Origin: an uncultured Solirubrobacterales bacterium
GTDB lineage: Bacteria; Actinomycetota; Thermoleophilia; Solirubrobacterales; Solirubrobacteraceae
Reading direction: 5' to 3'
Assembly: GCA_963770615.1 (NCBI GenBank)
Contig: CAVYQJ010000032.1
Span: 2,202-66,201 of the forward strand
DNA length: 64,000 nt
Part shown: piece after piece, positions 25,005 to 34,359 of the stretch
Numbering within the stretch: position 1 is the first letter of the stretch
Layout: the number at the start of each line of letters is the position of its first letter
The notes under the pieces: model-generated
Database searches by the model: none
Told to the model about the DNA's origin: nothing
The model's input: the letters and a program-made list of their open reading frames with translations, nothing else
Translations under genes and position numbers: made by a program

Positions 25005-25118
25005 GGCGCTACACGAATAAGAAGCTGGTGTTACGTCGTCCCGGTGGAACCCCCCGCGTGTCGGGTTTGGGCCACCCGGCCATTGGCATCACGGGCTGCT
25101 TTGGCGAACGTGTCTCCC

Positions 25119-26141
25119 ATGAGCACGACGATGCCGACGATCGACACCGACCTCGCGACCACTGAGAGCGCCGTCAACGGCCTCCCTTACGGTGCCGCGA
25201 TCGCGTCGGTCGGCGCGAGCCTGCCGCATACGGTCGTCCCGAACGCCGAGATCGCGGCGCGGATCGGCGTCAGCGACGAGTGGATCGTCCGGCGCACCGG
25301 GATCCGCTCGAGGCGCATCGCCGAGCCGGGCGAGCGCCTCACCACTCACGCGGCCGGCGCCGGCGCGGCCGCGCTGCGGAGCGCGGGGATCTCGCCCGAG
25401 CAGGTCGACCTTGTGATCGTCGCCACCACCACCCCGGACGAGGTCATGCCGAACGCGGCACCGCTCGTCGCTCACGAACTCGGCGCGGTGCGCGCCGGCG
25501 CGTTCGACGTCGGCGCGGCGTGCACGGGCTTTCTGTCGGCGCTGGCGGTCGGCACCGGACAGATCGAGTCGGGCCGCGCGCAGTGCGTGCTCGTGATCGG
25601 CGCGGACCTGATGTCGCGGATCCTCGACCCCGAGGACCGCACGACCGCGGCCGTGTTCGCCGACGGCGCCGGCGCGGTCGTGCTCACCGCCACCGGCGAG
25701 ACCAGCCGCATCGGGCCGATCGTGCTCGGCGCGGACGGCGCGGGCGCCGATCACATCATCGTCCCGCGCGACGAGGGCGTGATCCGCATGCGCGGCCACG
25801 AGACCTTCCGCGAGGCGGTCGCGCGTCTGTCGCTGTCCACGGTGCAGGCCGCTCGCGCGGCCGGCACGCGCCTCGACGACATCGACCTGTTCGTCTACCA
25901 CCAGGCCAACGGACGGATCCTGAGCGCGGTCGGCGAGCGCCTCAGCCTGTCCCCCGACCGGGTCGTCGACTGCATCTCCGAGTACGGCAACACGTCGGCG
26001 GCGACGCTCCCGCTCGCGCTCGCGCACGTCGAGCGCAACGGCCGGCTGAAGCCGGGGCACCGAGTGCTGCTCGGCGCGTTCGGCGCGGGCTTCACCTGGG
26101 GCGCGACCGTCATTAATTGGGACCCACGCATCCCGGCATGA
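25119..26141 (+). CDS. fabH: Beta-ketoacyl-ACP synthase III
   Basis: Catalytic AC(TGF), HQAN, GNTSAA; ATGA overlap with fabF. Confidence 0.93.
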   Translation: MSTTMPTIDTDLATTESAVNGLPYGAAIASVGASLPHTVVPNAEIAARIGVSDEWIVRRTGIRSRRIAEPGERLTTHAAGAGAAALRSAGISPEQVDLVIVATTTPDEVMPNAAPLVAHELGAVRAGAFDVGAACTGFLSALAVGTGQIESGRAQCVLVIGADLMSRILDPEDRTTAAVFADGAGAVVLTATGETSRIGPIVLGADGAGADHIIVPRDEGVIRMRGHETFREAVARLSLSTVQAARAAGTRLDDIDLFVYHQANGRILSAVGERLSLSPDRVVDCISEYGNTSAATLPLALAHVERNGRLKPGHRVLLGAFGAGFTWGATVINWDPRIPA

Positions 26142-27361
26142 GCGGCCGCGTCCTGATCACGGGCGTCGGCGCCGTGACGCCCCTCGGCGTCGGCGCGCGC
26201 GAGCTCTACGACGGCTGGACCGCGGGCCGCAGCGGCATCGAGGACGGCCTCGGCGCGTGCACGGACTTCGATCCGGCCGAGTTCATGACGGTCAAGGAGG
26301 TTCGGCGGAGCGATCGCTTCGCCCAGCTCGCGATCGCGGCGAGCACGCAGGCCGTCGCGGACGCGGGATGGGACGCAGAGAACCCGCCCACGGATCCTGC
26401 CGACCTCGGCTGCGTGATCGGCTCGGGGATCGGCGGAATGTGGACGTTCGAGAGCCAGTGCGACGTGCTGCGCGACCGCGGGCCCGAGCGCGTCTCGCCG
26501 CTCGCGATCCCGCTGATCATGGGTAACGCGGCCGCGGGCCTCGTGGCGATGCGCCACGGCCTCCGGGGGCCGGTGTTCGGCGTCATGTCCGCGTGCGCGT
26601 CGGGCACCCACGCGATCGGCGAAGCCGCGCGGATGATCCGATCTGGAGAGGCACAGGCAATCGTCGCGGGCGGGGCGGAGGCGACGCTGACTCCGCTCGC
26701 AAAGGCTGCTTTTGCGTCGATGGATGCGACCTCGCCGACGGGCATCTCGCGGCCGTTCGACGCCCGCCGAGACGGGTTCGTGATGGGCGAGGGCGCGGGC
26801 GTGCTCGTGCTCGAGTCCGAGGAGCTGGCGACGGCGCGCGGCGCGACGGTGCTCGGCGAAGTGCTCGGCTACGCGTCGACCGCCGACGCGTATCACCTGA
26901 CCGCCCCCGAGCCGACCGGCCGGCCCGCGTCGCTCGCGATCACGCGCGCAATGAAGAGCGCGGGCGTGACTCCAGAGGACATCGACTACATCAACGCGCA
27001 CGGCACCTCGACGCCGCTCAACGACCGCTCGGAGACCGAGGCGATCAAGCTCGCGCTCGGGGAGCGGGCGTACGACATCCCGGTGTCGTCGACGAAGTCC
27101 GCGATCGGGCACCTGCTCGGCGCCGCCGGCGCGGTTGAGGCGATCGCGACGATCATCGCGCTGGGCGAGCGCGTCGCGCCGCCGACGCTCAATTACGAGG
27201 AGCAGGACGAGGGGCTCGACTTGGACTACGTCCCCGACGGTCCGCGTCGGCTCGGCGCCGCCAACGGAAACGGCAACGGCCACGCGCGGCTCGTCGCGCT
27301 TTCGAACTCGTTCGGCTTCGGCGGCCACAACGCGGTGCTGTGCCTCGGAGGTGTCTCATGA
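26138..27361 (+). CDS. fabF: Beta-ketoacyl-ACP synthase II
   Basis: SACASG, NAHGTST, KSAIGHLLGAAG, SNSFGFGGHN. Confidence 0.95.
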   Translation: MSGRVLITGVGAVTPLGVGARELYDGWTAGRSGIEDGLGACTDFDPAEFMTVKEVRRSDRFAQLAIAASTQAVADAGWDAENPPTDPADLGCVIGSGIGGMWTFESQCDVLRDRGPERVSPLAIPLIMGNAAAGLVAMRHGLRGPVFGVMSACASGTHAIGEAARMIRSGEAQAIVAGGAEATLTPLAKAAFASMDATSPTGISRPFDARRDGFVMGEGAGVLVLESEELATARGATVLGEVLGYASTADAYHLTAPEPTGRPASLAITRAMKSAGVTPEDIDYINAHGTSTPLNDRSETEAIKLALGERAYDIPVSSTKSAIGHLLGAAGAVEAIATIIALGERVAPPTLNYEEQDEGLDLDYVPDGPRRLGAANGNGNGHARLVALSNSFGFGGHNAVLCLGGVS

Positions 27362-28785
27362 GCGCCACGCTCGCACCTCGGACCGATACGGCGCCGCTCA
27401 GCCCGGTCGAGCGCCTGGAGACGCTGTGCGATCCGGGGACGCTCGAGCTGATCCGCTCGGAGGTCATCTCGGGAGCGATGGGCGATAAGGCCCGTGCGGG
27501 CGACGGCGTCGTCGCCGGCGCCGGGCTCCTCGACGGGCGGCCGGTGTTCTGCTACGCGCAGGACTCGAGCTTCGCCGGCGGCTCGCTCGGTGAGCAGCAC
27601 GCGAACACGATCGTGCGCGTGCTCGAGCTTGCTGACAAGTCGCGCGCGCCCGTCGTCGGGTTCGTGGCCTCGGGCGGCGCGCGGATGCAGGAGGGCGTGG
27701 CCGCGCTCGGCGGTTACGGTCGCATCTTCCACCGGATCGTCAAGCTTTCCGGTCGCGTTCCGCAGGTGTCGATCATCACCGGCCTGTCCGCCGGCGGTGC
27801 CGCGTACTCGCCGGCGCTGACCGACTGGGTCGTGATGACCGAGGAATCGAGCATGTTCCTGACCGGACCAAGCGTGGTGCGTGAGGCGCTCGGCGAGGAC
27901 GTGACCGCCGCTCAGCTCGGCGGCACGCGCGTCCACGAGCGCAGCGGCGTCTGCCATTTCGTCGCGCCGACCGACGTGAATGCCGCGTACCTGGCGCGCG
28001 AGCTGCTCGGCTACCTGCCGCGCCACCGCGGCGCGCGGCCGCCGGTGCTGCCCGCGCGGCCGCCGCTCGGGCACGACCCGTCGGGGCCGGTCCCCGCGGA
28101 CGGGCGCAGCGTGTACGACGTGCGCGACGTGGTCCGCGCGGTCGTCGACGGTGGCGAGATGCTCGAGGCGTCGGCCGGCTGGGCGCGCAACCTCGTCACC
28201 GGGTTCGCCCGGCTCGACGGCCACACGGTCGGCATCGTCGCCAACCAGCCGCGCTACCTCGGCGGCATCATCGACGCGGAAGCCGCCCAGAAGGGCGCCC
28301 GGTTCGTGAACAAGTGCAACGCCTTCGGGATCCCGCTCGTGGTGTTGGTCGACACCCCCGGGTACATGCCCGGCACCAAGCAGGAGTCCGCCGGCGTGAT
28401 CCGGTTCGGCGCCGAGTTCGTGCACGCGTTCGCCGCGGCCGAGGTGCCGCGGGTGACGCTGATCCTGCGCAAGGCGTTCGGCGGCGCGTACATCACGATG
28501 AACTCCAAGGACCTCGGCGCGGATTACGTGTTCTCGTGGCCGAACGCCGAGATCGGCGTGATGGCCGCCAGGTCTGCGGTCGGGATCATCAACCGCCGGG
28601 AACTCGAGGCGGCCGAGGAGCCCGACGCCGTCCGCGACCATCTCGCCGCGCGCTACGCCGAGACCAACCTTTGCCCGCGGGTCGCGGCTGCGGCCGGGCA
28701 TATCGACGAGCTGATCGCGCCCGATCAGACGCGCAACCGACTGACCTGGGCGCTTCGCTCGCTGAGCCCGGAGGCCGCTGAATGA
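27358..28785 (+). CDS. Acyl-CoA carboxylase carboxyltransferase subunit (PccB/AccD type)
   Basis: GDGVV.G, GGSLG, SGGARMQEG, GIVANQP, LVDTPG, RKAFGGAY. Confidence 0.93.
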   Translation: MSATLAPRTDTAPLSPVERLETLCDPGTLELIRSEVISGAMGDKARAGDGVVAGAGLLDGRPVFCYAQDSSFAGGSLGEQHANTIVRVLELADKSRAPVVGFVASGGARMQEGVAALGGYGRIFHRIVKLSGRVPQVSIITGLSAGGAAYSPALTDWVVMTEESSMFLTGPSVVREALGEDVTAAQLGGTRVHERSGVCHFVAPTDVNAAYLARELLGYLPRHRGARPPVLPARPPLGHDPSGPVPADGRSVYDVRDVVRAVVDGGEMLEASAGWARNLVTGFARLDGHTVGIVANQPRYLGGIIDAEAAQKGARFVNKCNAFGIPLVVLVDTPGYMPGTKQESAGVIRFGAEFVHAFAAAEVPRVTLILRKAFGGAYITMNSKDLGADYVFSWPNAEIGVMAARSAVGIINRRELEAAEEPDAVRDHLAARYAETNLCPRVAAAAGHIDELIAPDQTRNRLTWALRSLSPEAAE

Positions 28786-29915
28786 CCCGCCCCGATGGCA
28801 CCATCCTGCTCACCGGCGCGACCGGATTCGTCGGCATGGAGTTGCTCGCCCGGTACCTCGAGCGGAGCGAGCGTCAGGTGATCACGATCGTCCGCGCGAA
28901 CGGCGACGACGCCGCGGGCGAGCGGATCGACGCGGTGCTCGAGAACCTGTTCGGGTATCGCGGCGCGCGCTACGCCGACCGGGTCACGGCGCTCGCCGGC
29001 GATCTGACGGCGCCGCGCCTCGGCCTCGACGGCGCTCGCTGGGAATGGCTCGCGGCGCAGGCGACGATGATCGTTCACGGCGCCGCGTCGGTGTCATTCG
29101 ATCAAACGCTCGAGGACGCGCGCGCGATCAACGTCGAGGGCACGCGCCGGATGCTCGAGCTGGCCGGACGGGCGCGCGAGCTGGGCGGGCTCGAGCGCTA
29201 CGGCCAGATCTCGACCGCGTACGTCGCCGGCACCCACGCGGGCCGCTTCTTCGAATGCGACCACGACGTCGGTCAGAGCTTCCACAACTCCTACGAGCAG
29301 TCGAAGTTCGAAGCCGAGCGGCTCGTGCGCTCCCGGCCGGGGTTGCCGTTCACGATCCTGCGACCGAGCATCGTCGTCGGCGACCGCAATAGCGGCTGGA
29401 CCGCGGCCTTCAACGTTCTGTACTGGCCGCTGCGCGCTCTTTCGCGCGGTCTGTTCCCAGCGGTCCCAGCGCTGGCGTCCTCGCCCGTCGACGTCGTCTC
29501 GATCGACTACGTCGCGGACGGCATCTACGAGCTTTGCGAGTCCGCCGGCGGGATCGGTCAGACCTATCACCTCACCGCCGGCGCCGACGCGACCACAATC
29601 GGCGAGCTCGCCGAGCTCGCGAGCGGATACTTCCGCCAACCGCCGCCGCGCCTGATCCCGCCGGACGAGTTCGAATTGCTCGACCACGACGGGATGGGAC
29701 GCTCGATGTTCGAGGAAGGGCGCGCGTACTTCCCGTACTTCTCGGTGACGACCACGTTCGACGACGCGTTGACGCGCGCGCGACTCGAGCCGGCCGGGAT
29801 CGCCGTCGCGCCGCTGCGCGAGTACATCGATCGCCTGCTCGACTACGCCACGACGAGCCGCTGGGGCAAGCACCCGATCGCGCGCGCGGACGCGGCGGCG
29901 CTCGCCGGCGTGTGA
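28782..29915 (+). CDS. Stand-alone thioester reductase/fatty acyl reductase-like extended SDR (NAD_binding_4)
   Basis: LLTGATGFVG, HGAASV, NVEGT, YEQSK, RPSIVVGD. Confidence 0.88.
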   Translation: MTRPDGTILLTGATGFVGMELLARYLERSERQVITIVRANGDDAAGERIDAVLENLFGYRGARYADRVTALAGDLTAPRLGLDGARWEWLAAQATMIVHGAASVSFDQTLEDARAINVEGTRRMLELAGRARELGGLERYGQISTAYVAGTHAGRFFECDHDVGQSFHNSYEQSKFEAERLVRSRPGLPFTILRPSIVVGDRNSGWTAAFNVLYWPLRALSRGLFPAVPALASSPVDVVSIDYVADGIYELCESAGGIGQTYHLTAGADATTIGELAELASGYFRQPPPRLIPPDEFELLDHDGMGRSMFEEGRAYFPYFSVTTTFDDALTRARLEPAGIAVAPLREYIDRLLDYATTSRWGKHPIARADAAALAGV

Positions 29916-29994
29916 TCTAGGTCTCGCCCCCCACCTGGGGGGTTGGCGCGCATGGTCGGTTGCCTGCGGCCTTGAGGGCGAGCAACCTAGGCAG

Positions 29995-30225
29995 ATGGCC
30001 ATGCACGCCGACACGGCCAGGTTCCGCAGCGACGACCCCGATCCGCTGGTGATTGCGTCGCTGGCGTGTTCGATCTGTCTGCGCAGTGACGACATCGAAT
30101 GGCACGCCGCACTCGACGGATACGATCCGTCCGTCGAATGCCGATGCCCACGCTGCGAGGAGACCTGGCGGGTGTATCTGGAACCGCAGCAGGCGCTGCG
30201 GTTCGCGCTGATGGACTCCCTCTGA
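29995..30225 (+). CDS. Small double-CxxC (zinc-ribbon-like) protein
   Basis: CSIC and CRCPRC in 76 aa; stop overlaps the next gene (CTGA). Confidence 0.75.
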   Translation: MAMHADTARFRSDDPDPLVIASLACSICLRSDDIEWHAALDGYDPSVECRCPRCEETWRVYLEPQQALRFALMDSL

Positions 30226-31331
30226 GCTCGCGCTCAGAAGTCGGAATCGACGCGCTCGAGTTGTTCGTCGAGGTGCTGTCGCAGTCCGAAGACGCCTCGT
30301 CCAACGGCGGCGGCTTCTACGATCGCCTGTGCGACGCGGTGTGTCGGTTGGCGCGGATGCGGCGAGCACTGATCTTCCGCTATGACAGCGCGGTCCGGCG
30401 CGTGCGCGCGGCCGGCGCGCACGGCCTCAACCTCGAGCAGTTTGCCGGCGCCCACGTGACCGTCGAGTCGGCGCCGATCGCGGCCCAGTCGCTGCGTGAG
30501 GACCGCGTGATCGAGATCGAGGGAGACATGACCGGGCAGTTCCCGCCGGAGTACGCGAGCGTCTTCCCCGAGCCGGTCCGGCTCGTGTGCGCGCCGATGG
30601 CGGCGGCCGGCCGCGCCATGGGCGTGATCTTCGCCGACCGGTTGCTGACCGAGCCGCCGCTCGACGACGCTGAGCGGTATCTGCTGTGGACGCTCGGCAA
30701 GACCGCCGCGCTCGCCTCGGTCGCCCGGCTCGTGGCCAAGCACGCCGAGGAGGCAGACCAACTCGAGCAGCGAATCGATCTCGCACGCGACATCCACGAG
30801 GTCGTCATCCAGCGCCTGTTCGGCGTCTCGATGGCGCTCGACGGCGAGGGCGATCTGCCTGCGGAGGCCCGCCAGCGCTGCGCGACCGAGACCCAGGAGG
30901 CGCTATCAGATCTGCGCACCGCGCTCCAGCGCCCGCTCGGCCGCTCGCCGCGCGCGACTCAGACAGAGTTCGTGGCCGAGGTCGAGCGGCTGTCGCGCGT
31001 GCACCCAGATCTCGGCGTGACGCTCGTCGCGGGTGGCGAGGGCGACGTCCCGCCGGCGCTCGAGCCGCTCGCCCAGTCGGTGCTCGCCGAGGCGGTCCGC
31101 AACGCGCACAAGCACGCCGACCCGAGCCAGGTCAGCGTGCGCATCGGGCGCGACGACGGCACGTTCGTACTCGAGGTGGCCAACGACGGGGTCACCGGCG
31201 CCAGGCACCGCGCCGGGATGGGCCTGCGGCTGGCCGCGATGGAGGCACTTCAGTTCGGGGGCGTCGTCGAGTTCGGCGCGCGCGAGCCGGGTACCTGGCA
31301 GGTCCGATTGGTGGTGCCCGATGAGTTCTGA
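30222..31331 (+). CDS. Cytoplasmic GAF sensor histidine kinase (HisKA_3)
   Basis: GAF region; LARDIHEVVIQRLF H-box; EAVRNAHKHA N-box; NDG, GMGL; start uncertain (CTG 30222 overlapping upstream stop). Confidence 0.88.
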   Translation: MSSRSEVGIDALELFVEVLSQSEDASSNGGGFYDRLCDAVCRLARMRRALIFRYDSAVRRVRAAGAHGLNLEQFAGAHVTVESAPIAAQSLREDRVIEIEGDMTGQFPPEYASVFPEPVRLVCAPMAAAGRAMGVIFADRLLTEPPLDDAERYLLWTLGKTAALASVARLVAKHAEEADQLEQRIDLARDIHEVVIQRLFGVSMALDGEGDLPAEARQRCATETQEALSDLRTALQRPLGRSPRATQTEFVAEVERLSRVHPDLGVTLVAGGEGDVPPALEPLAQSVLAEAVRNAHKHADPSQVSVRIGRDDGTFVLEVANDGVTGARHRAGMGLRLAAMEALQFGGVVEFGAREPGTWQVRLVVPDEF

Positions 31332-31944
31332 AACGGCGATGCGAAGTCCGGAAAAGCTGAGCGTGCTCGTCGTGGACGATCACGACGTCGTCCACTGGGG
31401 CATCCGGCTGATGCTGACCCAACAGCCGTGGGTCGACCGGTGCCTGAGCGCGCACTCGGGCGAGGAGGCGCTGGCGCTGGTGGCGCGCTACCGGCCGCAC
31501 GTGGCGCTGGTCGACCTGTTCATCGGCGAGGAGTCGGGCGCGGAGATCTGCGAGCAGCTGCGTAAGACCGAGCCGCTGACGCGCGTGCTGCTGTTCTCGG
31601 GCGCCGGCGAGATCTCCCCGCACGCGGCGCGCGCCGCCGGCGCATCGGGGTTCGCCTACAAGGACTGGCCGGCGCGGAAGATCGCGAGCGCGGTGCGCAT
31701 GGTCGGGCTGGGCAAGACGGTGTTCGATCACCAGGACCGGCCGGTCGCGCTCGGCCTGTCCGACCGCGAGCGCGATGTTTTGAATCTGATGGCGTCCGGC
31801 GCCACCAACCCCGAGATCGCCGAGGCGCTCCATCTGTCCAAGCACACGGTCAAGGAGCACACGAGCGCGGTGTACCGCAAGCTCGAGGTGCGCAACCGGA
31901 CCGAAGCGGTGCAGCGCGCGCAGCGGCTCGGGCTGCTGTCGTAG
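31321..31944 (+). CDS. NarL/LuxR family response regulator
   Basis: VLVVDDH, ALVDL, LSDRERDVL.LMA.G.TNPEIAEALHLSKHTVKEH. Confidence 0.95.
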   Translation: MSSETAMRSPEKLSVLVVDDHDVVHWGIRLMLTQQPWVDRCLSAHSGEEALALVARYRPHVALVDLFIGEESGAEICEQLRKTEPLTRVLLFSGAGEISPHAARAAGASGFAYKDWPARKIASAVRMVGLGKTVFDHQDRPVALGLSDRERDVLNLMASGATNPEIAEALHLSKHTVKEHTSAVYRKLEVRNRTEAVQRAQRLGLLS

Positions 31945-31987: not shown

Positions 31988-33676
31988 CTGGACGCGGCGC
32001 TGAGCGAGATCGCGCGATTCCTGGCCGCCCGGGCTCCGTTCGATGCGCTTGCGCCCGAGGAGCTCGGTGAGGTCGCGGCACAGACCGAGATCGAGTTCTA
32101 CGTCTCCGGCGCCGCGATCCTGACCGAGGACGGCGGGCCGGTCACATTCCTGCGCGTGATCCACTCGGGCGCGGTCGACATCATCCACGACGGGCGCCTG
32201 CTCGACATGCTGGGTACCGGCGACGCGTTCGGTCACGCCTCGATGCTGTCCGGGCTTCCGCCCGGGTTCGAGGCCCGGGCCGCCGAGGACACGCTCTGCT
32301 ATCGGATCCCGGTGAGCGTCGCGCGGCCGCTGCTCGACCGCGTCAATCGGCGCGAGATCGAACTCGCGGCGGGGCCCCCGAACCACAGGCCGGTCACGAG
32401 AATGATCCGTTCGCCGACCGTACGCTGCGAACCGATGGAGAGCATCCGCGAGGTCGCCCGGCGGATGACCGAGGTCGGCGCGAGCTCGGCGATCGTCGAT
32501 CTGCGCGGCGGCGGCTTCGGGATCGTCACCGATCGCGACATCCGCACCAAGATCGTCGCGGCGGGCCTGCCGTTGAGCGCGCCGGTGGCGACCGTGATGA
32601 CCAATCCCGTGTTCTCGGTCACCCCCGACCGGCTCGGTGGCGACGTCCTGTTCGAGCTGCTCGAGCGCGGGATCAAGCACGCGCCGATCGTGTCCGAGGG
32701 CGGTCAGCTGATCGGGGTGATCGAGGACGCCGACCTGTTCCCGGCCCAGTCGCAATCGTGGTTCGGGGCGCGGCGCTCGATCTCGCGCGCTTCCTCGCCG
32801 GATGATCTCGCGGCGGTCGCCAAGCGGCTGCCCGACGTGATGGCCGACCTGCATGCGGCGCGGCTGCGCGCGCCCGAGGTAGTGCGCGTGGTGTCGGCGC
32901 TCGTCGACGCACTGACCACGCGCGCGCTCGAGCTGGTTGCGCCGGCGCCGGGGGGCGGCGTCGTGTGGGTTGCGGTCGGTGCTCAAGCGCGCCGCGAGCT
33001 GACCCCGGCGTCGATCGCCCGTGGGGCCGTGGTGTGTCACGATCCGCCGCCGGCCGAGTGGATGAGGTCGGTGGGCGAGGTGATGCGCGCGTGCGGCTTC
33101 CCGGGCGAAATCGTCGCGCGCAGCACCGAGGAGTGGACCCATGCCATCGGGGAGGACGAGCTCGAGCTCTCGGTACTGATCGAGCGCCGCGCCCTATGGG
33201 GGACGCCGATCGATCCGTTGCCGGCGCCCGAAGGCCCGGCGCGCGATGCGGTCGTGGCCGCGCTGGCGCGCCGCGCGCTCGCGGCCGTGCCGCCTACGGG
33301 GTTCGACGCCGATTCGGTACTCGAAGAAGGTGGTGGACGGAGTGACCGGCTCGACATCCGGCTGGCCGCGGTCGCGCCGATCGTCGAGCTCGCGCGCTGG
33401 GGCTCGACGGTGGCGGGCGTGTTCGAGGGATCGACGCCGGAACGGCTGCTCGCCGCCGCGGCCGGCGGAGCGCTTAGCGAAGCCGAGGCGCGGACGCTCG
33501 CCGACGCGTTCGACCTCGCGCTCGAGCTGCGGATCGGCCACCACATGAGCCGGATCGCCGCCGGCCAGCCGCCCGACGACGAGATCGAACCCGCCGAGAT
33601 CAGCCCGCTGATGCGCGACACCCTCCGCGACGTGTTCCGGGCGGTGACGTCGGTGCAGCGGAGGTTGCGGGGGTGA
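31988..33676 (+). CDS. cNMP-CBS-CBS-DUF294 nucleotidyltransferase-like protein, catalytic motif degenerate
   Basis: FLAARAPFDAL, GDAFG (cNMP), GIVTDRDIR (CBS), LDIRLAAVAPIV..AR (DUF294_C); GAQARRE..SIARG in place of GS..RRE..SDQDN; proposed CTG start after GAGGAG. Confidence 0.85.
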   Translation: MDAALSEIARFLAARAPFDALAPEELGEVAAQTEIEFYVSGAAILTEDGGPVTFLRVIHSGAVDIIHDGRLLDMLGTGDAFGHASMLSGLPPGFEARAAEDTLCYRIPVSVARPLLDRVNRREIELAAGPPNHRPVTRMIRSPTVRCEPMESIREVARRMTEVGASSAIVDLRGGGFGIVTDRDIRTKIVAAGLPLSAPVATVMTNPVFSVTPDRLGGDVLFELLERGIKHAPIVSEGGQLIGVIEDADLFPAQSQSWFGARRSISRASSPDDLAAVAKRLPDVMADLHAARLRAPEVVRVVSALVDALTTRALELVAPAPGGGVVWVAVGAQARRELTPASIARGAVVCHDPPPAEWMRSVGEVMRACGFPGEIVARSTEEWTHAIGEDELELSVLIERRALWGTPIDPLPAPEGPARDAVVAALARRALAAVPPTGFDADSVLEEGGGRSDRLDIRLAAVAPIVELARWGSTVAGVFEGSTPERLLAAAAGGALSEAEARTLADAFDLALELRIGHHMSRIAAGQPPDDEIEPAEISPLMRDTLRDVFRAVTSVQRRLRG

Positions 33677-34359
33677 GGCTGCGCCGGTCGCCGCCGACGG
33701 GTTCGGCCGCGGAGTTCGCGCAGGCCGAGCGGCCGGCCGACGACACGCCATGGCGCGATGCCCACTGGTGCGCGCTCGACCTCGAGATGACGGGCCTCGA
33801 CCCCCGCCACGAGGAGATCATCGCGATCGGCGCGGTCCCGATCGACGAGGGCCGGATCGTGCTCGGCGGCGGGCTGTACACGCTCGTGCGCACGAGCCGG
33901 CGCTCCCAGCACGGGGCCGTGCTCGTGCACAAGCTGCGGGTGCCCGACCTCGCCGAAGCGCCGCCGCTCGAGGAGGCGCTCGATCGCATGCTCGAGATGC
34001 TCGCCGGGCGCGTCCCCGTGTTCCACACCGCGGCGATCGAGCGGAGCTTCCTCGAGCGGCAGTTCGCCGGCCGGAACGTGCGGCTGCCGGCGGCCGCCGA
34101 CACCGAGGCGCTCGGGCGAGCGTGGCTGCGCCACCGCGACGGGTCCTCGCCGGAGGGGATCTCACTCGGCCGGCTCGCCCGCGTGCTCGGGCAGCCGGCG
34201 GAGACGCCCCATCACGCGCTCGGCGACGCGCTCACGACCGCGCAGGCGTTCATCGCACTCGCGACCCTGCTCGACACGGTGGCGCCACAGACCGTCGGCT
34301 CGTTGCTCGCGGCCAGCCGGCCTGCAGTCGGGGCGGGGCGGCGGTTCGGCTCGGGCTGA
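33673..34359 (+). CDS. DEDDh 3'-5' exonuclease (DnaQ-like)
   Basis: ALDLEMTGLD, IIAIGAVP, VFH, HHALGDA; GTGA overlap with the DUF294 gene. Confidence 0.9.
   Translation: MRLRRSPPTGSAAEFAQAERPADDTPWRDAHWCALDLEMTGLDPRHEEIIAIGAVPIDEGRIVLGGGLYTLVRTSRRSQHGAVLVHKLRVPDLAEAPPLEEALDRMLEMLAGRVPVFHTAAIERSFLERQFAGRNVRLPAAADTEALGRAWLRHRDGSSPEGISLGRLARVLGQPAETPHHALGDALTTAQAFIALATLLDTVAPQTVGSLLAASRPAVGAGRRFGSG

What the first reader, a model, noticed from the sequence alone, without database searches (positions are those of the whole stretch)
25119..29915. Compact FabH-FabF-carboxyltransferase-thioester reductase operon without ACP
Seen: four genes joined by ATGA overlaps, all with intact catalytic residues, ending in a stand-alone NAD_binding_4 reductase. 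No ACP, FabD, FabG or biotin carrier is present. Known: such reductases release acyl thioesters as aldehydes or alcohols, and PccB-type subunits supply (methyl)malonyl-CoA. Inference: a dedicated accessory route to a reduced, possibly branched lipid (fatty alcohol/aldehyde, wax or ether-lipid precursor, or signal) rather than core FAS II.
Basis: partly seen in the sequence, partly recalled or inferred. Interest (0 to 1): 0.55.

Follow-up and report, generated by a model that had tools for sequence, protein, structure and literature searches.

The report
Wax-precursor branch of fatty-acid synthesis
This soil actinobacterium carries a stripped-down second copy of its fatty-acid-building genes ending in an enzyme that most likely turns fatty acids into fatty alcohols for wax-type storage lipids, and a short shared DNA signal suggests that the neighbouring sensor-regulator pair controls both copies.

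Summary
Observation confirmed: four intact, ATGA-coupled genes, with no ACP, FabD or biotin carrier in the window. The host is an uncultured Solirubrobacteraceae bacterium with a complete fab operon on another contig, so this copy is accessory. Two corrections. (1) The carboxyltransferase is AccD6-like (Ile, not Asp, at PccB position 422) and the true PccB lies elsewhere, so branching is unsupported. (2) The operon is not a purpose-built pathway but a reduced version of an order-wide locus: box-(zinc-finger ORF)-kinase-regulator-box-fabD-fabH-fabG-acp-fabF-CT-(MaoC)-fabI-reductase. In other genera, including the isolate Conexibacter sp. SYSU D00693, the reductase ends the genome's only fab operon. 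Reductase relatives are fused or adjacent to wax ester synthase in several lineages and occur in a family with no detectable ketosynthase. This points to a fatty acyl-CoA/ACP reductase feeding wax esters (inferred; the partner synthase subtype was not found in this genome). A rare CCCCCC-N4-GGGGGG box precedes both fab copies, the zinc-finger/kinase genes and, in one genome, a wax synthase. The scan noted the spare operon and box before in another genome (e1-5236000). New variant of known parts; no enzyme or binding data.

The parts
25050..25065 (+). Degenerate regulatory box (CCCCCC-N4-GTCGGG) upstream of fabH; candidate response-regulator site
   Evidence: Left half CCCCCC plus a fixed consensus in 85 of 85 accessory fabH upstream regions; coordinates
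25119..26141 (+). FabH (3-oxoacyl-ACP synthase III), C135-H261-N291; 62% identical to the core FabH on C21
   Evidence: TIGR00747 328.6 bits, cut-off 292.1
26138..27361 (+). FabF (3-oxoacyl-ACP synthase II), C153-H288-H325; 64% identical to the core FabF; the gene most often missing in relatives
   Evidence: PRK07314 472 bits, cut-off 387; TIGR03150 486, just under 493.75; found in about 44 of 80 loci
27358..28785 (+). AccD6-like acyl-CoA carboxylase carboxyltransferase, Ile379 at the PccB Asp422 position; 57% identical to the core CT
   Evidence: PF01039; ungapped alignment to PccB 385-460 and to AccD6; Ile in 134 of 134 homologues
28782..29915 (+). Stand-alone NAD_binding_4 acyl-thioester reductase (predicted fatty acyl-CoA/ACP reductase), T145-Y171-K175
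   Evidence: PF07993; best NCBIfam hit is the N-terminal part of PRK07201; model pLDDT 88, closest folds MxaA R domain TM 0.79 and rice DPW fatty acyl reductase TM 0.75; WS/DGAT fusions
29927..29942 (+). Perfect CCCCCC-N4-GGGGGG box upstream of the zinc-finger ORF, kinase and regulator (candidate autoregulatory site)
   Evidence: One of 4 perfect sites in the 6.6 Mb genome, another being the core fabD promoter; other spacer lengths give 0-1; perfect in 62 of 81 homologous regions
29995..30225 (+). 76-aa CxxC...CxCxxC microprotein of no known family; travels with the kinase and the box
   Evidence: 72 of 80 loci; five invariant Cys; dN/dS 0.06-0.16; no Pfam family
30222..31331 (+). Soluble GAF-HisKA_3-HATPase histidine kinase; start uncertain (CTG 30222 overlapping the upstream stop, or TTG 30261); paralogue beside the core fab operon
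   Evidence: Pfam; no hydrophobic segment above 1.45; 52% identical to the C21 copy; junction survey
31321..31944 (+). NarL/LuxR-family response regulator; paralogue beside the core fab operon
   Evidence: PF00072 + PF00196

Best explanation
The operon is the reductase-bearing, ACP-less remnant of a second copy of the Solirubrobacterales fab locus. SHOWN: gene identities and intact active sites; a complete core operon elsewhere in the genome; descent from a full operon that ends in this reductase; a shared rare box. INFERRED: when the adjacent soluble kinase/NarL pair is active, the regulator binds the box and switches the operon on. The CT, paired with the genome's biotin carboxylase-carrier subunit, makes extra malonyl-CoA. 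FabH and FabF add priming and elongation capacity, borrowing FabD, FabG, FabI, a dehydratase and ACP from the core set. The reductase uses NAD(P)H to reduce finished long-chain acyl-CoA (or acyl-ACP) to the aldehyde and probably the primary alcohol. One of the genome's WS/DGAT enzymes then esterifies the alcohol into wax esters, a carbon and reductant sink. The reductase and the regulatory trio are the retained core; fabH, fabF and CT are optional supply boosters.
For: Core operon on C21, only fabD in the genome there, and two FAS-type ACPs. Among the 80 loci closest by reductase similarity, 79 have the kinase-regulator pair, 72 the Cys-rich ORF, about 72 fabH, 70 CT, 44 fabF and 1 an ACP. The reductase ends complete fab operons in G100, G106, G130, G227, G148 and G118 (same family) and in G219 and G200 (another family; acp and fabI not detected in G200). 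In G106 and G130 this is the only ketosynthase locus; G106 is Conexibacter sp. SYSU D00693. Link to wax synthase: fusions P0122, P0123, P0125; L158 reads fabD-fabH-fabG-acp-fabF-CT-RED::WS/DGAT; WS-RED gene pairs in G038, G035, G062, G073; in G259 the perfect box precedes fabD-fabH-fabG, fabD-acp-fabF-CT-RED and a WS/DGAT gene. Three of four genomes of a family with no Ketoacyl-synt_C hit keep a roughly 50% identical reductase, consistent with an acyl-CoA substrate. The fold matches thioester reductases and a plant fatty acyl reductase. Box: perfect copies in 17 of 19 genomes of kinase-bearing families and 0 of 6 in the two families without the kinase; by my count 27 of 38 sites directly precede fab, Cys-rich ORF, kinase or WS genes. 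Four WS/DGAT genes in this genome. An NADPH-dependent acyl-CoA reductase feeding wax esters is established in M. tuberculosis (PMC3522743).
Against: No WS/DGAT lies in this operon. The WS subtype found next to the reductase elsewhere has no orthologue here (best 38-40%) and occurs in only 5 of 60 genomes of the genus. None of the four local WS genes appears among the top box matches. The WS-linked reductases are about 50% identical and mostly fall in neighbouring branches of the tree, not the window's branch. The long fusions come from single assemblies, and L158 has frameshifts, so a fusion could be read-through; adjacency would still hold. In Fcr1 the acyl-CoA reductase activity was annotated to the C-terminal SDR part, not the part this protein resembles, so it might reduce only aldehydes. 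Substrate, chain length, product, expression and regulator binding are untested. The loci were selected by reductase similarity and are kin.
Confidence: 0.55

Rival explanations
1. Lipid-signal circuit: FabH, CT and the reductase make a diffusible fatty aldehyde or alcohol that the GAF domain of the adjacent kinase senses, closing a quorum-like positive loop.
For: Reductase and kinase-regulator are the most tightly linked elements (79 of 80). Some genomes keep only kinase-regulator-reductase (G062, G215). Boxes precede both the enzymes and the regulator genes. The kinase is soluble and has a GAF domain.
Against: The same kinase pair and box sit at core fab operons that lack the reductase across three families, so the pair predates and does not need it. 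No exporter or tailoring enzyme is conserved in the neighbourhood. Reductase relatives occur without the kinase, beside WS/DGAT.
Confidence: 0.15
2. The alcohol goes into membrane ether lipids or another non-wax lipid rather than into wax esters.
For: More distant relatives (33-42%) are fused to acyl-CoA synthetase or acyltransferase domains, an architecture I recall from the myxobacterial ether-lipid protein ElbD. Ether lipids in Rubrobacterales are also recalled; neither was verified here. The partner WS subtype was not found in this genome.
Against: The nearer fusions (52-59%) are to WS/DGAT and a desaturase. No alkylglycerophosphate synthase or acyltransferase is a conserved neighbour.
Confidence: 0.12
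3. No coupled pathway: fabH, fabF and CT are spare, slowly eroding isoenzymes for ordinary membrane fatty acid synthesis under a second regulator, and the reductase acts separately (for example as an aldehyde reductase or a drain for surplus acyl-CoA).
For: Frequent independent losses and fragments of fabF, CT and fabH; same CT specificity residue as the core copy; a third fabH elsewhere in the genome.
Against: In this lineage all four genes are intact, translationally coupled and under purifying selection. The reductase stays at the end of fab operons across two families.
Confidence: 0.13
4. One reading: a dedicated methylmalonyl-CoA route to a methyl-branched reduced lipid.
For: Ile at this position gives a promiscuous enzyme that still accepts propionyl-CoA (PMC7835884), and the whole-protein best PDB hits are named propionyl-CoA carboxylase.
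Against: The propionyl-specific Asp is absent in all 134 homologues, the core CT has the same motif, and an Asp-type PccB is encoded on C3. Length and local sequence match AccD6. The operon has no dedicated acyltransferase or ACP to load methylmalonate.
Confidence: 0.05

Closest known systems
Mycobacterium tuberculosis fabD-acpM-kasA-kasB-accD6 operon
   Same: FAS II operon with an embedded short AccD6-type carboxyltransferase (473 vs 475 aa, Ile at the specificity position). Operon layout of the Mtb locus is from my own knowledge.
   Different: Here FabH is in the operon, ACP and FabD are missing from this copy, a reductase is appended, and the adjacent regulator is a GAF kinase/NarL pair rather than a one-component PucR-type protein (FasR/MabR, own knowledge).
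Fatty acyl-CoA reductase to wax ester route (M. tuberculosis Fcr1/Rv3391, Marinobacter Maqu_2507, with WS/DGAT)
   Same: NAD_binding_4 domain; the best NCBIfam hit is the N-terminal half of the 657-position PRK07201 model, which I recall as the Fcr1/Maqu_2507 family; genomic link to WS/DGAT.
   Different: Single domain without the C-terminal SDR; below the family cut-off (176 vs 549 bits); encoded inside a fab operon; no WS/DGAT beside it in this genome.
Terminal thioester reductase (R) domains such as MxaA, and plant FAR (rice DPW)
   Same: Best structural matches, TM 0.79 and 0.75; Thr-Tyr-Lys triad.
   Different: Free-standing, 20-29% identity, no carrier domain or NRPS/PKS nearby; TIGR01746 cut-off not reached; the FAR C-terminal Pfam PF03015 was not hit.
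Duplicated FAS II modules in Streptomyces clusters (RedP/RedQ/RedR; CDA FabH4/FabF3/ACP; own knowledge)
   Same: Extra FabH and FabF that borrow the remaining enzymes from primary metabolism.
   Different: Those carry their own ACP and feed a PKS or NRPS; this operon has no ACP and no assembly line.

Membership tests
FabH (KAS III) | Cys-His-Asn triad and family HMM above cut-off | tested here: met
   C135, H261, N291; TIGR00747 328.6 vs 292.1
FabF (KAS II) | Cys-His-His triad and family HMM | tested here: met
   C153, H288, H325; PRK07314 passes, TIGR03150 is 8 bits under its cut-off
PccB (propionyl-CoA-specific carboxyltransferase) | Asp at position 422 | tested here: not met
   Ile379 maps to PccB 422 by ungapped alignment; role of the residue from PMC7835884
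AccD6/AccB-like carboxyltransferase | Ile at the specificity position, short N-terminus, location in a fab operon | tested here: met
AccD6/AccB-like carboxyltransferase | Acetyl-CoA carboxylation with a biotinylated alpha subunit | not testable with these tools
   Candidate alpha subunit on C3; no assay
NAD_binding_4 acyl-thioester reductases | TGxxGxxG, Thr/Tyr/Lys triad, extended-SDR fold with C-terminal helical subdomain | tested here: met
Fcr1/Maqu_2507 two-domain fatty acyl-CoA reductases | NAD_binding_4 domain fused to a C-terminal SDR | tested here: not met
   377 aa, matches only positions 4-350 of the 657-position model
NRPS/PKS terminal R domains | Fused behind a carrier domain of an assembly line | tested here: not met
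   No PP-binding hit on this contig; TIGR01746 152 vs 213
Wax ester pathway (FAR + WS/DGAT) | WS/DGAT partner linked to the reductase | tested here: inconclusive
   Linked in other lineages; four unlinked WS/DGAT genes here, partner subtype not found
Wax ester pathway (FAR + WS/DGAT) | Alcohol and wax ester are made | not testable with these tools
   No lipid paper found for Conexibacter and wax esters
Secondary-metabolite FAS II modules (Red, CDA type) | Dedicated ACP in the cluster | tested here: not met
   ACP in 1 of 80 loci, none in the window
Two-component regulon with a palindromic operator | Box conserved at target promoters and co-distributed with the regulator | tested here: met
Two-component regulon with a palindromic operator | Regulator binds the box | not testable with these tools
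   Needs EMSA or ChIP

The most novel reading that the evidence does not exclude
Solirubrobacterales control fatty acid synthesis with an undescribed cytoplasmic three-part system (Cys-rich microprotein, GAF kinase, NarL regulator) whose regulon joins FAS II, a single-domain fatty acyl reductase and wax ester synthase. In this genus a second copy has specialised to run the reductive branch, possibly sensing its own aldehyde or alcohol product.
Probability: 0.3. Interest if true: 0.7.

Novelty: new variant of a known kind. Interest (0 to 1): 0.46.

Why it matters
Solirubrobacterales are common in soil metagenomes and little studied; my literature searches found nothing on their fab regulation or wax lipids (open-access papers only). 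If the reading holds, it gives them a predicted storage or stress lipid route, adds a compact single-domain bacterial fatty acyl reductase (about 6,000 homologues at E<=1e-40) of possible use for fatty alcohol production, and names a two-component system with a defined operator as the fab regulator in an actinobacterial order. A cultured strain carrying the single-copy version makes each step testable. The enzyme families themselves are well known, which caps the surprise.

Tried and rejected
Complex prediction of the 76-aa protein with the kinase gave no verdict, score 0.00, and is not evidence either way. The sigma-70 promoter and terminator scan found nothing. The ESM Atlas and Pfam gave the microprotein no family. 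Recent duplication within the genus: accessory and core FabF+CT form separate, fully supported clades and are not sisters in the best tree, but the AU test does not reject sisterhood (p 0.28), so old duplication and acquisition from a related lineage cannot be separated. Fixed differences between accessory and core FabH/FabF were listed but do not allow a chain-length prediction. A genome-wide matrix scan for further regulon members gave no convincing lipid genes; weak hits lie before a pyruvate dehydrogenase-like and a 2-oxoacid:ferredoxin oxidoreductase-like gene, not followed up. An OleD-like beta-keto acid reductase role was considered and dropped (E 0.0008 only). My first gene caller missed real genes in this GC-rich DNA, so counts rest on tblastn. 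Paper searches for AccD6/D422 and for Maqu_2507 domain roles returned nothing.
Full report
Observation. The four genes are present at the stated coordinates, in frame, and joined by ATGA overlaps. Family scans identify FabH, FabF, a Carboxyl_trans protein and a single-domain NAD_binding_4 protein. Catalytic residues are intact and all genes show purifying selection against nine close relatives (dN/dS 0.10-0.26). No fabD, ACP or biotin carrier is in the window. The closest homologues (up to 91%) come from uncultured Solirubrobacterales/Solirubrobacteraceae genomes.

Accessory status. Contig C21 carries kinase-regulator, a divergent SDR, then fabD-fabH-fabG-acp-fabF-CT-fabI, with 62, 64 and 57% identity to the window's FabH, FabF and CT. 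A second FAS-type ACP lies in the plsX-acpP-rnc locus, and a biotin carboxylase with carrier domain lies on C3. The missing parts are therefore available in trans. That they are borrowed is an inference.

The unit is larger than reported. After the reductase come a 76-aa protein with five invariant cysteines, a soluble GAF-HisKA_3 kinase and a NarL/LuxR regulator. A paralogous kinase-regulator pair sits beside the core operon. In the 80 loci closest by reductase similarity, the full order fabH-fabF-CT-RED-microprotein-kinase-regulator occurs 39 times and the version without fabF 21 times; others lack fabH, CT or all three. The kinase pair is present in 79 and an ACP in one. These loci are kin and were chosen by the reductase, so they show what is retained, not independent origins. 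A few absences are contig ends.

Origin. In other genera and families the layout is box-(microprotein)-kinase-regulator-box-fabD-fabH-fabG-acp-fabF-CT-(MaoC dehydratase)-fabI, and the reductase ends it in G100, G106, G130, G227, G148, G118 and G219, with shorter versions in G200, G259, G265 and G073. In G106 and G130 this is the only ketosynthase locus. G106 is the isolate Conexibacter sp. SYSU D00693. L104 is an intermediate that still has acp and fabI. FabF+CT trees give separate accessory and core clades, each with support 100; the accessory clade groups with the other genera's operons, but sisterhood with the core is not rejected. The window operon is thus a reduced old second copy that kept the reductase, while the core copy of this genus has none.

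Carboxyltransferase. Ile379 aligns with PccB residue 422. Asp there marks propionyl-CoA specificity and Ile a promiscuous enzyme that accepts acetyl-CoA (PMC7835884). All 134 operon CTs, core and accessory, have Ile, and an Asp-type PccB is encoded separately on C3. Length and local sequence resemble M. tuberculosis AccD6. Malonyl-CoA supply is the plain reading; methyl branching is not excluded but has no support.

Reductase. The model (pLDDT 88) matches the MxaA R domain (TM 0.79), rice DPW fatty acyl reductase (0.75) and other thioester reductases ahead of sugar epimerases. Context points to long-chain lipids. The nearest longer homologues are fused to a desaturase (59%) and to WS/DGAT (52%, three proteins, both domain orders). 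One of them ends a complete fab operon. WS-reductase gene pairs occur in G038, G035, G062 and G073. A family whose four sampled genomes (91-96% complete) have no ketosynthase hit keeps the reductase in three, which fits an acyl-CoA substrate. Against a direct wax link in this genome: the partner WS subtype is not found here and is rare in the genus, the four local WS/DGAT genes are unlinked, and Fcr1's acyl-CoA reductase activity was annotated to the domain this protein lacks (PMC3522743).

Regulation. An earlier scan note (e1-5236000) reported a palindrome shared with the main fab operon in another genome; I tested it here. CCCCCC-N4-GGGGGG occurs at four places in this genome, two of them the core fabD promoter and the microprotein-kinase promoter at 29927; other spacer lengths give 0-1. 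A degenerate form lies at 25050 and its left half and consensus are kept in all 85 accessory fabH upstream regions. Perfect boxes occur in 17 of 19 genomes from kinase-bearing families and in none of six from the two families without the kinase; the N6 control hits few genomes, largely in C/G runs. By my count 27 of 38 sites directly precede fab genes, the microprotein, the kinase or WS/DGAT. In G259 boxes precede both halves of a split fab operon and a WS/DGAT gene. Binding by the regulator is inferred from position and co-distribution only.

Verdict. Best reading (0.55): a regulated reductive branch of fatty acid metabolism that makes fatty aldehyde or alcohol, probably for wax esters, with optional extra FabH, FabF and CT working on the core carrier. 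Rivals: lipid-signal loop 0.15, uncoupled spare genes 0.13, ether or other lipid 0.12, methyl-branched product 0.05. All enzymes belong to known families. What I could not find described is the arrangement: a fab operon ending in a single-domain acyl reductase, tied to a two-component pair and a defined box across an order. New variant of a known kind; interest 0.46.

Noticed in passing
genomes G025, G030, G034, G038 (family f2 of the same order): No Ketoacyl-synt_C hit in four genomes of 91-96% completeness, one a single contig, and no fab-linked kinase in 8 sampled; G025 has eight WS/DGAT genes. Possibly a family that depends on outside fatty acids or alkanes.
   Followed up: partly
G000:C3:288249-290047: The AccA-type gene has its biotin carboxylase and biotin carrier parts in different frames near the 3' end; assembly error or a real frameshift.
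   Followed up: partly
window 30222-30263: The kinase has no ATG or GTG start after the microprotein; a CTG overlapping the stop (CTGA) is in frame here and in 21 of 72 relatives.
   Followed up: partly
G000:C27:63828 and L236 (G007): A perfect box is conserved in two genomes between an aminopeptidase-like gene and a small gene that appears to begin with a CxxC...CxxC motif; not a lipid gene by appearance.
   Followed up: no
G000:C9:20115-21239: A second reductase paralogue (51% identical) lies next to a patatin-like gene, with no box upstream.
   Followed up: partly
G000:C10:93855-95274: A third fabH (53%) follows a gene that looks like a fatty acid hydroxylase (HHxxH motif), identified by eye only.
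   Followed up: no
L227:3737-5011 and L229:1740-3215: In two genomes a cytochrome P450 gene lies just upstream of the core fabD, on the far side of the box, in one case directly divergent.
   Followed up: no
window 32156-34359: A cNMP-CBS-DUF294 nucleotidyltransferase and a DEDDh exonuclease follow the regulator here and in most close relatives.
   Followed up: no
L239, L240 (G244, G265): Between the regulator and the box these genomes insert three genes including an asparagine synthase-like and a nitrilase-like gene (by eye); G244 has kept the box but has no fab genes behind it.
   Followed up: no
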